This document shows, in pieces, positions 9,253 through 10,372 of a stretch of 57,095 bases of DNA (its first letter is position 1; each line of letters opens with the position of its first letter). The stretch is from Minisyncoccota bacterium. Its GTDB lineage: Bacteria; Patescibacteriota; Minisyncoccia; Phycocordibacterales; UBA9973. The position numbers were made by a program, and so were the translations under genes. The notes beneath the pieces are model-generated. The model was not told the DNA's origin and searched no databases. It was given only the letters and a program-made list of their open reading frames with translations. The stretch spans positions 5,852 to 62,946 of the forward strand of contig DALYDX010000001.1 of assembly GCA_031972835.1 (NCBI GenBank). Reading direction: 5' to 3'.

Positions 9253-9287
9253 AGCAGCCGCAAGAATGTGTAAAACAAGGCTTAGAG

Positions 9288-9329
9288 TGTCATGTGCCCG
9301 TGTAAAAAGCGGGCACACTTTTTAGACTA
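9288..9329 (+). repeat. expanded class-A box carrying an inserted GC hairpin (copy 1)
   Basis: tgtc-atGTGCCCGtgtaaaaagCGGGCACa-ctttttagacta. A 7-8-bp GC stem with a T-run sits between the two halves of a class-A box. Confidence 0.6.
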
Positions 9330-9488
9330 CATTGTATCTGTGTAAAATAATTTTAGGTATGTTTTTAGACAAACATCGCTATGTGAAAAACGAGAGAAGC
9401 AATGTCTTTAAACAACACGGGCGCTGTGCAAAACAAGAACTTACCTGTTTTTAGACAAAGGGGGCCGTGTGAGAAACAATCTCTGCTG

Positions 9489-9530
9489 TGTCATGTGCCC
9501 GTGTAAAAAGCGGGCACACTTTTAAGACAA
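9489..9530 (+). repeat. expanded class-A box carrying an inserted GC hairpin (copy 2)
   Basis: tgtc-atGTGCCCGtgtaaaaagCGGGCACa-cttttaagacaa. It is also 42 nt long and near-identical to 9288-9329. Confidence 0.6.
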
Positions 9531-10372
9531 GACAATGTGTGTGTAAAACAAGGGAAAAAGTGTTTTTAGACAATGCTAGTCATGTGAAAAACAAATTGTT
9601 TTATGTCTTTAAACCATGTTGCTACTGTGTAAAACAACATAAGATGTGTTCTTAGACAATCCATTAGATGTGCAAAACAATGGTGGTGATGTCTTTAAAC
9701 AAACAGCGGTGTGTGAAAAACAAAAATGAAATTGTTTTTAGACAATGGATGGATTGTGTAAAACAAAACACTGCCTGTCTTTAAACAAGATAAATTTTGT
9801 GAAAAACAATAGCCAATTTGTTTTTAGACAAGTTTATAACTGTGAAAAACAAGGGATAATATGTCTTTAAACAAAATAATGAGTGTGAAAAACAATACCG
9901 CCACTGTTTTTAGACAACCGTCTGCGTGTGAAAAACAAGAAATTAAATGTTTTAGACAAGAGACCGATTGTGAAAAACAAGTTGGATTCTGTCTTTAAAC
10001 AAAGAATTGTATGTGAAAAACAAAGGTAATTGTGTTTTTAGACAATGGAGTGGCTGTGCAAAACAAACGATATCGTGTCTTTAAGCAAAGATTGAACTGT
10101 GAAAAACAAAATCCGCCGTTTTTAAAACAATTCAATGCATGTGTAAAACAATCGACTACCTGTTTTTCAGACAAGGATTTGTATGTGAAAAACAAAGGTA
10201 ATTATGTTTTTAGATAATGGATCAGTTGTGTAAAACAACAGAGATGATGTCTTTTAAGCAAATGCTTTTACGTTGCGACTATATCTTTAAGCAAGGTGTT
10301 CCATGTAAAAACAAAATTAAAGGTGTTTTTAGATAAGTTTGTTGATGTGAAAAACAATTGTAAAGTTATCAA

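What the first reader, a model, noticed from the sequence alone, without database searches (positions are those of the whole stretch)
9267..10357. Array grammar: two alternating box classes, invariant 9-nt spacers, 43-nt unit
Box starts at 9360, 9382, 9403, 9425, 9446 and 9468 show strict 22/21-nt phasing. Class A boxes (13 nt: TGTTTTTAGACAA or TGTCTTTAAACAA) alternate with class B boxes (12 nt: TGTG[A/T/C]AAAACAA). Nearly every intervening segment is exactly 9 nt and non-repetitive. One unit is half-A + 9 nt + B + 9 nt + half-A, so each unit has two short guides around a conserved central box. That layout parallels box C/D sRNAs and tigRNAs, not CRISPR crRNAs. Units at the distal end (from about 10248) are degenerate: one B box is missing and boxes are truncated (tctttaagcaa, tgtaaaaacaa). 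This implies polarity, like the decayed leader-distal end of a CRISPR array.
Basis: seen in the sequence. Interest (0 to 1): 0.85.

Follow-up and report, generated by a model that had tools for sequence, protein, structure and literature searches.

The report
TIGR guide-RNA array beside Tas gene
The repeat array is a TIGR array, a recently described non-CRISPR family of tandem dual-spacer guide RNAs, encoded next to its Tas protein inside the ribosomal-protein operon of a candidate-phyla-radiation bacterium; it is an unusual variant of that known family (43-nt units, two alternating edge repeats, apparently nuclease-dead protein).

Summary
Positions 9267-10357 (+) hold 24 A boxes (13 nt) strictly alternating with 24 B boxes (12 nt). 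43 of the 47 intervals between boxes are exactly 9 nt.

It is a dual-repeat TIGR array (Faure et al. 2025): A is the edge repeat, B is the A-rich loop repeat, and both start with UGU and end with CAA. The ORF immediately upstream (7927-9252, 441 aa) is a Tas protein. Its Nop domain matches TasR (PDB 9MTY, profile E 2e-16), and the best Foldseek hits are TasR and TasH.

Features I did not find described in the TIGR papers I read:
- The unit is 43 nt rather than 36 nt.
- Two edge variants alternate, so that position 9 of one edge pairs with position 4 of the next. This register-shifted covariation supports a 4-5 bp closing helix for each unit.
- Some edges carry an inserted stem-loop, and this is conserved in relatives.
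- The Tas N-terminus looks like an HNH domain that has lost its catalytic histidines.
- The locus sits between rplB and rpsS in every relative down to 45% Tas identity for which flanking sequence is held.

In close relatives the spacers diverge faster than synonymous sites, and they are replaced as whole edge-to-edge units. No convincing natural target was found. Transcription, processing and binding are inferred, not shown.

The parts
7714..7742 (+). promoter-like site (TTGAGA-17-TAGAAT) ending at the first base of the upstream mini-array
   Evidence: Consensus scan. The function is inferred.
7742..7817 (+). short upstream TIGR array: 5'-truncated edge TTTTTTAGACAA, spacer, B box, spacer, edge TGTCTTTAAGCAA, spacer, B box TGTGTAAAACTA
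   Evidence: Parse and sequence. The relative L001 has a longer array (7 B boxes) at the same place.
7833..7856 (+). intrinsic-terminator-like hairpin (CCCCCGAAA/TTTCGGGGG followed by a T run) that closes the upstream mini-array
   Evidence: Read from the sequence. L001 has an equivalent hairpin.
7872..7899 (+). conserved promoter block for tas: TTGCAT, 16 nt, then TGgTAATGT (an extended -10)
   Evidence: These bases stay conserved in 6 genomes whose flanks have diverged. The function is inferred.
7927..9252 (+). tas gene, 441 aa. Domains in order: HNH-derived N-terminal domain (about residues 27-75) without the catalytic histidines, coiled coil (about 104-200), Nop domain (about 197-440) with a beta-rich insertion (about 323-388)
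   Evidence: phmmer against 9MTY TasR gives E 2.9e-10 and the family profile gives 2.2e-16. The Foldseek top hits are 9mty TasR, 9w04 TasH and IS621. The best BFVD hit is a 309-aa phage protein, followed by sub-threshold phage HNH endonucleases. AlphaFold model pLDDT is 78.9. HNH motif comparison.
9253..10370 (+). main dual-repeat TIGR array: truncated first edge, 24 loop (B) boxes, 24 edge (A) boxes, 9-nt spacers, truncated last edge. It would yield about 23-24 tigRNA units of 43 nt
9288..9329 (+). edge repeat carrying an inserted stem-loop: UGUC, then the hairpin GUGCCCG-UGUAAAAAG-CGGGCAC, then UUUUUAGACUA
   Evidence: Fold of about -16 to -18 kcal/mol, z = -2.4. Flagged as terminator-like. 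Present in the first edges after tas in L001, L005, L008, L013, L014 and L015.
9489..9530 (+). second copy of the stem-loop-bearing edge repeat
   Evidence: L008 also has two copies.
10248..10336 (+). degenerate distal units: a 14-nt edge, a missing B box, an edge that starts TAT, and an 11-nt B box
10371..10398 (+). intrinsic terminator (AAATCCCCGAAATTCGGGGATTT followed by T7) that ends the array
   Evidence: Terminators follow the arrays of the relatives as well.
10470..10498 (+). separate promoter for rpsS and the rest of the ribosomal-protein operon: TTGACA, 17 nt, then TGCTAGTAT
   Evidence: These bases are invariant in 5 genomes within an otherwise diverged spacer region.

Best explanation
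The region is a dual-repeat TIGR (tandem interspaced guide RNA) array that belongs to the Tas gene immediately upstream.

**Proposed mechanism**
1. tas and the array are read from the conserved promoter at 7872-7899 through to the terminator at 10371-10398. A short second array upstream has its own promoter-like site and terminator.
2. The precursor is cut inside each A (edge) box, in or next to the UU between positions 5 and 8. This gives RNAs of about 43 nt: 5'-(U)A[G/A]ACAA, 9-nt spacer A, UGUG[A/U/C]AAAACAA, 9-nt spacer B, UGU[C/U]U(U)-3'.
3. The two ends of each RNA pair with each other: C11-G2, A10-U3, N9-N4 and A8-U5. This forms the edge box C/D element. The B box forms the equivalent element through its own G2-C10 and U3-A9 pairs around an A-rich loop.
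4. A Tas dimer binds one element per protomer.
5. Spacer A and spacer B pair with opposite strands of an 18-bp DNA site that reads 5'-spacerA-revcomp(spacerB)-3'.
6. The HNH-like N-terminal domain lacks the histidines needed for cleavage in SpTasH. The most likely outcome is therefore binding and blocking (RNA-guided repression or interference), not cutting.

**Shown here:** the array grammar, Tas homology, the pairing covariation, the terminators, the synteny and the spacer turnover.

**Inferred:** transcription, the cut site and the 43-nt product, DNA binding, absence of cleavage, and what the targets are.
For: **Array grammar.** It matches the published definition: two alternating short repeats, 9-nt spacers, a terminator at the end and truncated terminal edges. 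Both repeat classes share UGU at the 5' end and CAA at the 3' end. Published arrays have UG and CCA, which covary between edge and loop.

**Tas protein.**
- Sequence and profile hits to PDB 9MTY. 9MTY is the TasR structure.
- The Foldseek ranking is TasR, TasH, then IS110-family recombinases, then Nop5.

**Closing helix.**
- In the window, the pair N9(edge i)-N4(edge i+1) is GC in 10 units, AU in 8, GU in 4 and unpaired in 0. Sliding the partner drops pairing from 96% to 26-56%.
- Over 102 units from 8 arrays the counts are 80 Watson-Crick, 17 GU and 5 mismatches. The same two positions within a single edge give 9, 49 and 34. No permutation in 10,000 reached the observed value.
- The published structure also places these pairs between different edge repeats.
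- The MFE fold of a two-unit stretch recovers the AAACAA/UUGUUU closing helix and the B mini-hairpin.

**Unit framing.** Between L001 and L005, spacers are conserved or replaced together in 14 of 16 A-bounded units, against 6 of 16 B-bounded pairs.

**Target geometry.** Taken from the published TaTasR tigRNA1 and its target.

**HNH loss.**
- Nuclease-dead SpTasH is the H54A/H58A mutant.
- The motif GG..P[D/E]N..L..A[H] aligns with GGK..PEN..KLS..AN in this family, so H54 corresponds to N66 and H58 to V70.
- The divergent member P0020 keeps CxxC...CxxC-D and gives a weak Pfam HNH_5 hit.
- Nuclease-lacking TasA and catalytically dead TasR have been shown to act as RNA-guided repressors.
Against: - No RNA data exist for this locus. 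Transcription, the cut site and the 43-nt size are inferred.
- The published dual-repeat tigRNAs are 36 nt, from 8-12-nt repeats. The edge here is 13 nt.
- The C-terminal Tyr/His processing dyad is said to be conserved in dual-repeat systems. I cannot find it at the aligned positions. The low-confidence alignment puts R/I and M there. The only invariant Tyr-His is the adjacent Y410-H411 in SDFYH.
- The HNH assignment rests on weak scores: hhalign E 0.011, Pfam E 0.007 below the family threshold, and sub-threshold Foldseek hits.
- No target was established. There is no self-match above chance in about 120 kb of host sequence. The exact viral matches (2 of 8 units) cannot be told apart from the false-positive rate expected for 18-mers.
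Confidence: 0.85

Rival explanations
1. This is the same TIGR-Tas system, but it works as an active nuclease against phages or plasmids. Either the divergent HNH-like domain still cuts using other residues, or a host nuclease is recruited.
For: - Spacers turn over faster than synonymous sites, as expected for an arms race.
- Two units have exact 18/18 matches in phage structural genes. One is in L016-L018, in a tail-fibre-like ORF. The other is in L019/L020, just after a start codon beside the major head gene.
- A second window unit matches L016 with 2 mismatches, where shuffles give about 0.02 expected for the window's units on that contig.
- K46 and the GG motif are invariant in the N-terminal domain.
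Against: - Both histidines whose mutation inactivates SpTasH are absent throughout the family.
- The window protein has also lost the Asn of the motif: S57 where relatives have N.
- Six of the eight viral scans found nothing, and the two positive ones hit unrelated phages. That is what chance would give for 18-mers in a library of this size.
- Interference by binding alone would explain the same turnover.
Confidence: 0.2
2. This is a domesticated host regulator. The vertically inherited locus uses its guides on the bacterium's own genome or RNAs, for example to control genes, or to act on rRNA or ribosome biogenesis in the manner of box C/D RNPs.
For: - The position between rplB and rpsS is fixed in every relative with Tas identity of 45% or more for which flanks are held: L001, L005, L006, L007, L008, L009, L012/L013 and L014.
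- The locus has its own conserved promoters and terminators.
- No mobility genes are present.
- TasA and dead TasR can repress chromosomal genes.
- CPR bacteria are the only known non-viral hosts of TIGR arrays.
Against: - No spacer pair matches the 57-kb window or the other roughly 60 kb of related host sequence above the shuffled expectation: 2 hits against 1.5 expected.
- Regulatory guides should be conserved, but almost no spacer is shared between this window and its relatives. At most 2 were seen where 0.35 are expected by chance.
- No rRNA gene lies in the window, so rRNA complementarity could not be tested.
Confidence: 0.1
3. This is not an RNA element at all. It is a DNA-level array of protein-binding sites (iteron-like or operator-like repeats), or a degenerate CRISPR array.
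For: Short AT-rich repeats at helical-scale spacing (21-22 nt) could serve as binding sites. Box pairs also resemble sigma-70 hexamers.
Against: - Covariation that preserves Watson-Crick pairing between positions about 36 nt apart is an RNA signature.
- The boxes are strand-specific, with a terminator downstream.
- The neighbouring gene encodes a Nop-type guide-RNA-binding protein.
- Against CRISPR: the repeats are 12-13 nt and of two classes, the spacers are 9 nt, the flanking genes are ribosomal-protein genes, and the adjacent ORF is a Tas protein rather than a Cas protein.
Confidence: 0.02

Closest known systems
Dual-repeat TIGR-Tas systems (TaTasR, SpTasH, FpTasA; Faure et al. 2025, Science, PMC12045711)
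   Same: - Alternating edge and loop repeats with two 9-nt spacers per unit.
- Box D (UG) at the start and box C at the end of both repeats.
- An A-rich loop repeat.
- Extra pairs in the edge that form between neighbouring edge repeats.
- A truncated first and last edge, followed by a terminator.
- A single adjacent Nop-domain protein with a coiled coil.
- A CPR host.
   Different: - The unit is 43 nt rather than 36 nt. The edge is 13 nt and the loop 12 nt, against the 8-12 nt reported.
- Box C is CAA rather than CCA.
- The edge helix is 4-5 pairs rather than 2.
- Two edge alleles alternate.
- Some edges carry an inserted stem-loop.
- The protein is 441 aa, has an HNH-like domain without the catalytic histidines, and has a beta-rich insertion.
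- No Tyr/His processing loop can be recognised.
- The locus is chromosomal and vertically inherited, inside the S10 operon.
Stem-loop TIGR arrays (PlTasA, CsTasR, PateTasR; Faure 2025; Xu et al. 2026 preprint, doi 10.64898/2026.09.09.750476)
   Same: - Each unit is closed by a helix between its own two ends.
- Helix positions next to boxes C and D vary between units of one array and are compensated.
- Many of the proteins are nuclease-dead and come from CPR bacteria.
- Those proteins have been shown to act as repressors.
   Different: - The closing helix here is short and nearly constant, and adjacent units share one contiguous edge repeat with no variable linker.
- The loop repeat is conserved.
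- The extra stem-loops here sit between units, not around them.
- The closest solved relative by sequence is the dual-repeat TaTasR.
Archaeal/eukaryotic box C/D sRNPs (Nop5/Nop56/58, L7Ae, fibrillarin)
   Same: - A bipartite guide RNA with two guide segments, each lying between a C-type and a D-type box.
- A dimeric Nop-domain scaffold. Nop5 structures appear among the weak Foldseek hits.
   Different: - There are no RUGAUGA or CUGA boxes and no K-turn, and no L7Ae or fibrillarin gene is adjacent.
- The guides are 9 nt.
- The characterised relatives target DNA, not RNA for methylation.
IS110/IS1111 bridge-RNA recombinases (IS621, ISCro4)
   Same: - A homologous RNA-binding domain: Pfam Transposase_20 hit at E 1.6e-5 and profile hits to 8WT6 and 9T56.
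- Relatives of the Tas protein are annotated as 'transposase' in public records.
   Different: - There is no DEDD/RuvC-like catalytic domain and no serine-recombinase-type C-terminal domain.
- There is no single bridge RNA and there are no element ends.
- The locus holds an array of many guides and keeps a fixed chromosomal position.
CRISPR arrays
   Same: - Tandem repeats separated by variable spacers, processed into guides.
- A degenerate distal repeat.
- Spacer content differs between strains.
   Different: - There are two repeat classes of 12-13 nt, 9-nt spacers and two spacers per guide.
- No cas genes lie adjacent to the array and no leader is evident.
- In the closest pair the variation is at the terminator-proximal end, and elsewhere it is mosaic.

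Membership tests
TIGR-Tas, dual-repeat type | Two distinct short repeats that alternate, separated by spacers of about 9 nt of constant length | tested here: met
   24 A boxes and 24 B boxes alternate, and 43 of 47 intervals are exactly 9 nt. The repeats are 13 and 12 nt, at or just above the published range of 8-12 nt.
TIGR-Tas, dual-repeat type | Both repeats start with box D (UG) and end with box C (CCA, or a variant that covaries between edge and loop) | tested here: met
   Both classes read UGU...CAA. Columns T16, G17, T18 and A27 are invariant, and C25 and A26 are at least 90% conserved.
TIGR-Tas, dual-repeat type | An adjacent gene encodes a Tas protein, that is a Nop domain with a coiled-coil dimerisation region | tested here: met
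   Profile E of 2.2e-16 to the TasR structure 9MTY. The best Foldseek hits are TasR and TasH, with probability 1.00. The model has long helices at residues 104-143 and 184-202.
TIGR-Tas, dual-repeat type | The edge repeat has extra base pairs, formed between neighbouring edge repeats and supported by covariation; the loop repeat is A-rich | tested here: met
   In the window the pair is GC in 10 units, AU in 8, GU in 4 and unpaired in 0. Across relatives the counts are 80 Watson-Crick, 17 GU and 5 mismatches, against 9, 49 and 34 within a single edge. The B box is UGUGAAAAACAA.
TIGR-Tas, dual-repeat type | The array begins with a 5'-truncated edge and ends with a 3'-truncated edge followed by a rho-independent terminator | tested here: met
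   The first edge is reduced to ...AAGCAG and overlaps the tas stop codon. The last edge is TATC (10367-10370), followed by the terminator at 10371-10398.
TIGR-Tas, dual-repeat type | The transcript is processed in the middle of the edge repeats into unit-length tigRNAs bound by Tas | not testable with these tools
   This needs small-RNA sequencing or a pull-down. Indirect support only: spacers are replaced in A-bounded cassettes.
TIGR-Tas, dual-repeat type | A Tyr/His processing dyad on a C-terminal loop of the Nop domain, reported as conserved in dual-repeat systems | tested here: inconclusive
   The low-confidence hhalign alignment to SpTasH gives no Tyr or His opposite Y289 and H296. The family has an invariant Y410-H411 and a conserved GENP..NPRIM tail. 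No residue-level structural alignment was available.
TIGR-Tas, dual-repeat type | The two spacers recognise opposite strands of one DNA target | not testable with these tools
   Only a target search was possible. There is no self-target. Exact viral matches were found for 2 of 8 units, which is within the chance expectation.
TasH (Tas with an active HNH nuclease) | An N-terminal HNH domain that keeps its catalytic histidines (SpTasH H54 and H58) | tested here: not met
   The fold and motif look HNH-derived. The aligned residues are N66 and V70, and no member of the family has His at either position.
TasR (Tas with a RuvC domain) | An N-terminal RuvC-like domain, active or inactive | tested here: not met
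   The similarity to TasR is confined to the Nop domain: query residues 197-280 and 389-413. The N-terminus has a beta-beta-alpha layout with a CxxC...CxxC remnant in P0020.
CRISPR-Cas | A single repeat of about 25-36 nt, spacers of similar size, and associated cas genes | tested here: not met
   The repeats are 12-13 nt and of two classes, and the spacers are 9 nt. The neighbours are ribosomal-protein genes and tas.
Box C/D sRNA | C (RUGAUGA) and D (CUGA) boxes forming K-turns, with L7Ae and fibrillarin as partners | tested here: not met
   The box sequences are UGU...CAA and contain neither consensus. Rfam finds no family above threshold in 7300-10600.

The most novel reading that the evidence does not exclude
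A TIGR system with a nuclease-dead, HNH-derived Tas has been vertically inherited inside the S10 ribosomal-protein operon of Paceibacterota. It would work as a chromosomal, binding-only RNA-guided silencer of phage or host genes. Its guides would be renewed by replacement of whole edge-to-edge tigRNA cassettes, faster than synonymous substitution. That would make these syntenic loci a natural system for studying how TIGR arrays gain and lose spacers. [quoted passage not shown]
Probability: 0.3. Interest if true: 0.7.

Novelty: new variant of a known kind. Interest (0 to 1): 0.5.

Why it matters
TIGR-Tas was described only in 2025. Its natural targets, the origin of its spacers and its role in cellular hosts are stated open questions. 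This locus and its relatives bear on them in four ways.

1. **Spacer dynamics.** The locus and its syntenic relatives form a rare set of orthologous arrays in a fixed chromosomal position. Spacer change can therefore be read against a neutral clock. Here it shows cassette-wise replacement that is faster than synonymous change.

2. **Guide structure.** The alternating edge alleles give sequence-only, within-array evidence for the inter-edge pairing that was previously seen in one cryo-EM structure. They point to an intermediate between the two known array architectures.

3. **A third kind of inactivation.** An HNH-derived but histidine-less Tas would be another instance of nuclease loss, alongside TasA and dead TasR. 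That fits a trend in CPR bacteria towards binding-only RNA-guided proteins.

4. **Annotation.** Relatives of this protein are labelled 'transposase' in public records.

Tried and rejected
- **Self-targeting.** I built 5'-spA-rc(spB)-3' patterns for 22 window units, and also tried the other framing and the other geometry. None matched the 57-kb window with 2 or fewer mismatches, and the 3-mismatch hits equalled the shuffled controls. 104 units from all arrays, searched against about 120 kb of host loci, gave 2 hits against 1.5 expected.

  - Six found nothing.
  - Unit 9416-9445 matches three related contigs (L016-L018), in a tail-fibre-like gene.
  - Unit 9703-9732 matches two contigs of an unrelated phage (L019, L020).
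  - A second window unit matches L016 with 2 mismatches.
  - I kept no scan for shuffled controls, so the false-positive rate is only estimated. I treat these hits as leads, not findings.

- **Rfam.** Nothing above threshold in 7300-10600, only terminator look-alikes.

- **tblastn of Tas against GenBank phages.** No match.

- **Spacers arising by duplication and drift inside the window.** Only one duplicated unit was found (10003-10045 against 10175-10217). Similar spacer pairs are not enriched over shuffles.

- **Strict CRISPR-like polarity.** Not supported beyond the one strain-level pair.

- **The edge stem-loop as a plain terminator.** This is unlikely to be its conserved role. The equivalent stem-loops in L007 have a different sequence with compensatory changes and no T run.

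- **Tyr/His processing dyad.** It could not be located by alignment.

- **The single A-box at 50844 (- strand).** It lies inside a coding ORF with no neighbouring boxes, so I take it as chance.
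Full report
**1. The observation**

Reading 8900-10800 and parsing it with an edit-distance model of three box consensi gives 48 boxes on the + strand between 9267 and 10357.
- 24 are A boxes of 13 nt: TGTTTTTAGACAA (A1) or TGTCTTTAAACAA (A2).
- 24 are B boxes of 12 nt: TGTG[A/T/C]AAAACAA. A and B strictly alternate.
- 43 of the 47 intervals are exactly 9 nt.
- Strict regular expressions for the boxes are expected 0.03 (B) and 0.01 (A) times per strand in the window. 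They occur 21 and 12 times on the + strand, all in this array or in a mini-array at 7742-7817, against 0 and 1 on the - strand.
- TRF finds periods of 43 and 86.

**2.
- A1 and A2 mostly alternate, which explains the 86-nt period.
- Two A boxes are interrupted by a GC-rich stem-loop. These edges are 9288-9329 and 9489-9530, with stem GUGCCCG/CGGGCAC, at about -16 kcal/mol.
- The array begins with a truncated edge overlapping the stop codon of ORF 7927-9252. It ends with TATC (10367-10370) running into a strong intrinsic terminator (10371-10398).
- A short array with its own promoter-like site and terminator lies upstream of the ORF (7714-7856).

**3. The neighbouring gene**

ORF 7927-9252 (441 aa) has only a weak Pfam hit, to the IS110-family domain Transposase_20. 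Other comparisons identify it more clearly.
- phmmer finds PDB 9MTY at E 2.9e-10. A profile of 21 homologues finds it at 2.2e-16, followed by the IS621 and ISCro4 bridge-RNA recombinases.
- 9MTY is the TIGR-TasR complex with tigRNA and DNA.
- An AlphaFold model (pLDDT 78.9) has as its best PDB matches TasR, then five TasH complexes, then IS110-family recombinases, then Nop5.
- In the viral structure library the best match is a 309-aa phage protein. A tail of sub-threshold phage HNH endonucleases aligns to a short stretch.

The protein is therefore a Tas (TIGR-associated, Nop-domain) protein.

**4. Fit to the known family**

Faure et al. 2025 define dual-repeat TIGR arrays by the following features.
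- Two alternating 8-12-nt repeats (edge and loop) separated by 9-nt spacers.
- A truncated edge at each end of the array, and a terminator after it.
- Processing in the middle of the edge repeats into RNAs that carry spacer A, the loop repeat and spacer B.
- Both repeats begin with box D (UG) and end with box C (CCA, or a variant that covaries).
- The loop repeat is A-rich.
- The edge repeat has an extra pair that forms between different edge repeats of a processed tigRNA.

Every feature that can be tested from sequence is met here. B (UGUGAAAAACAA) is the loop repeat and A is the edge repeat. Both read UGU...CAA.

**5. The alternating edges are a register-shifted covariation**

A1 has U at position 4 and G at position 9. 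A2 has C at position 4 and A at position 9. Within one box these would give U-G or C-A. Between position 9 of one edge and position 4 of the next edge they give G-C or A-U.
- In the window the 22 usable units give GC 10, AU 8, GU 4 and unpaired 0. The whole proposed structure has 96% of cells paired, against 26-56% when the partner is slid by 1-3 columns.
- Over 102 units from eight arrays the inter-edge pair is Watson-Crick 80 times, GU 17 times and mismatched 5 times. The intra-edge pair gives 9, 49 and 34. Permuting partners within arrays gives 47.7 +/- 4.8 Watson-Crick, and none of 10,000 permutations reached 80. The related arrays share ancestry, so these counts are not independent events. 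The window alone already shows the pattern.
- With the invariant C11-G2, A10-U3 and A8-U5 pairs, each unit is closed by a 4-5 bp helix (AGACA/UGUCU or AAACA/UGUUU). An MFE fold of a two-unit stretch recovers this helix and the small B hairpin without any constraint.
- A contiguous 13-nt edge cannot form the helix in cis, because the loop would be only 2 nt. The cut is therefore expected in or beside U6-U7, and the product is 43 nt wherever exactly the cut falls.

The published generalisation is a 36-nt fold with two edge pairs. This array is a longer variant and looks like a step towards the stem-loop TIGR architecture.

**6. Stem-loop-bearing edges**

The interrupted edges combine an A2-type 5' half (UGUC) with an A1-type 3' half (AGACA). 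The two halves can therefore also pair in cis across the inserted hairpin, as folded for L001.
- The element is present, with nearly the same sequence, in the first or second edge after tas in L001, L005, L008 (twice), L013, L014 and L015.
- In the distant relative L007 two edges carry a different stem-loop at the same place (GGUCCAGG...CCUGGAC and GGUCCGGA...UCCGGAC). The two differ by compensatory changes and have no U run.
- A conserved structural role is therefore likely. A plain terminator is not the best description.
- My guess, which is inference only, is that the element protects or attenuates the tas mRNA 3' end or otherwise marks a boundary in the precursor.

**7. The N-terminal domain**

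SpTasH (NC_020844, 14395-15324) carries the motif ...GGTYTPDNTRVLTPRAHMERH. Its nuclease-dead form is H54A/H58A.
- This family has ...WGGKxxPENxxKLSxxANxxY. The GG, P, [D/E]N, L and A positions line up, which puts N66 opposite H54 and V70 opposite H58.
- The window protein has also lost the Asn: it has S57 where relatives have N.
- The most divergent member (P0020) keeps CPRC...CLPCD, a typical HNH zinc-knuckle pattern with Asp in place of His, and gives a weak Pfam HNH_5 hit (E 0.007, below threshold).

I conclude, as an inference from weak but concordant signals, that the domain is HNH-derived and catalytically dead. The texts I read describe active HNH, active or inactive RuvC, or no nuclease domain. 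They do not describe a dead HNH.

Catalytically dead TasR and TasA have been shown to repress transcription in an RNA-guided way. That is why I favour binding over cutting for this protein, at about 0.6 for that step.

The Tyr/His dyad reported to process dual-repeat tigRNAs could not be located. Y410-H411 in the invariant SDFYH is a candidate.

**8. Genomic setting**

The locus lies between rplB (6496-7344) and rpsS (10546-10896).
- tblastn shows the order rplW-rplB-tas-array-rpsS-rplV, or as much of it as the contig holds, in L001, L005, L006, L007, L008, L009, L012/L013 and L014. Tas identities run from 78% down to 45%. Only the 31%-identical L010 is elsewhere, beside trxB, ftsZ and ftsA.
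- The named relatives are Candidatus Paceibacterota MAGs.
- rplB is followed by a terminator (7359-7385, read from the sequence).
- tas has a conserved promoter block.
- rpsS has its own invariant TTGACA-17-TGCTAGTAT promoter.
- No integrase or transposase gene was seen in the 3.2-kb island.
- The full-length family is small: 12 clusters at E below 1e-30 among 1.84 billion representatives. About 1,600 other proteins match on the Nop domain only.

This is a vertically inherited chromosomal system. The literature notes that CPR bacteria are the only known non-viral hosts of TIGR arrays.

**9. Spacer dynamics**

*Window against its nearest relatives.* Tas is about 78% identical and four-fold sites are saturated at about 40%. 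Essentially no spacer is shared: 2 near-matches against 0.35 expected. That is uninformative on its own.

*Closer pairs.* The arrays are colinear.

| Pair | Box identity | Spacer identity | tas four-fold site identity |
|---|---|---|---|
| L001 vs L005 | 95.7% | 63.1% | 81% |
| L005 vs L014 | 98.7% | 88.2% | 97% |

- The distribution of mismatches per spacer is bimodal. In L001 against L005, 10 spacers are identical and 12 have 6 or more mismatches out of 34. This is not drift.
- The conserved or replaced state is concordant within A-bounded units (14 of 16) but not within B-bounded pairs (6 of 16). The combined Fisher P is 0.02.
- Turnover therefore proceeds by whole tigRNA cassettes, which independently supports A as the edge.
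- In the strain-level pair all differences lie in the terminator-proximal third. In more distant pairs replacement is mosaic.
- Inside the window only one unit is an evident duplicate.
- No adaptation genes are adjacent to the array.

How new units arise remains unknown, as the literature also states.

**10. Targets**

The target geometry, 5'-spacerA-revcomp(spacerB)-3', was derived from the published TaTasR tigRNA1 and its substrate.
- No self-target exists in the window or in the related host loci.
- Eight units were scanned against IMG/VR.
- One unit (spacers at 9416-9424 and 9437-9445) matches 18 of 18 in three related phage contigs, inside a tail-fibre-like gene.
- Another unit (9703-9711 and 9724-9732) matches two contigs of an unrelated phage, just after the start of the gene next to the major head protein gene.
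- That second unit also matches L016 with 2 mismatches and a perfect spacer-B half. About 0.02 such hits are expected for the window's units on that contig.
- Six scans found nothing.

An 18-mer is expected to hit a library of this size by chance at a rate of the same order, and I kept no scans for shuffled controls. I regard these matches as leads only. I put roughly 0.3 on at least one of them being genuine.

**11. Verdict**

- The element is a member of the TIGR-Tas family, which is already known.
- Within that family it is a distinct variant. It has 43-nt units with a longer closing helix, alternating edge alleles and stem-loop-bearing edges. Its Tas is HNH-derived and apparently dead. Its position in the S10 operon of Paceibacterota is fixed.
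- Its main value is comparative. It gives sequence-only support for the guide's fold, and it provides a set of orthologous arrays in which spacer turnover can be measured.

Noticed in passing
window 7422-7739 (+): A 105-aa ORF lies between the rplB terminator and the upstream mini-array. It has no Pfam hit and no tblastn counterpart in any related locus. In L001 the same place holds a longer upstream TIGR array. In L012 and L013 it holds a 99-aa ORF on the opposite strand that also has no Pfam hit.
   Followed up: partly
L016 8769-8786, L017 5627-5644, L018 3945-3962; L019 4809-4826, L020 3204-3221; L016 13391-13408: Two window units have exact 18-nt matches, in the published target geometry, in uncultivated phage contigs. 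One lies in a tail-fibre-like gene. The other lies in a gene beside the major head protein gene. A second window unit also matches L016, in its tail-terminator gene, with 2 mismatches. These could be natural targets or could be chance.
   Followed up: partly
window 9452-9480, 9653-9681 (+): An A1 box together with the following B box produces sigma-70-like hexamers (TAGACA, 17 nt, AACAAT). Internal promoters within the array cannot be excluded. The total count of promoter-like sites in the region (14) is not clearly above shuffled sequence (9.3 +/- 3.2).
   Followed up: no
window 7900-7926 and aligned positions in L001, L005, L008, L013, L015: [quoted passage not shown] It may be a translation or regulatory signal.
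   Followed up: no
L007 6208-7284 (+): In the 46%-identical relative, an extra 358-aa ORF without any Pfam hit sits between the downstream array and rpsS. In this locus the downstream array is also interrupted by a terminator-like hairpin and by edges that carry stem-loops.
   Followed up: no
L010 (Tas 31% identical), whole locus: The most distant family member has repeat clusters on both sides of its tas gene. It lies next to trxB, ftsZ and ftsA instead of in the S10 operon. The ribosomal-operon position is therefore specific to the clade with 45% or more Tas identity.
   Followed up: partly
window 32078-32464 (-) and 37642-37715 (-): A tmRNA gene (Rfam, 136 bits) and one tRNA gene. These are the only Rfam families above threshold in the window. 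No rRNA gene is present.
   Followed up: no
window 50844-50856 (-): A single exact A-box sequence (TGTTTTTAGACAA) lies inside the coding ORF 50249-51124 (-). No other boxes are nearby, so I take it as a chance occurrence.
   Followed up: yes
P0012, P0014 (relatives of the Tas protein): Public records name these proteins 'transposase', presumably because of the weak IS110-family Pfam hit. That name is probably a mis-annotation of Tas proteins.
   Followed up: no
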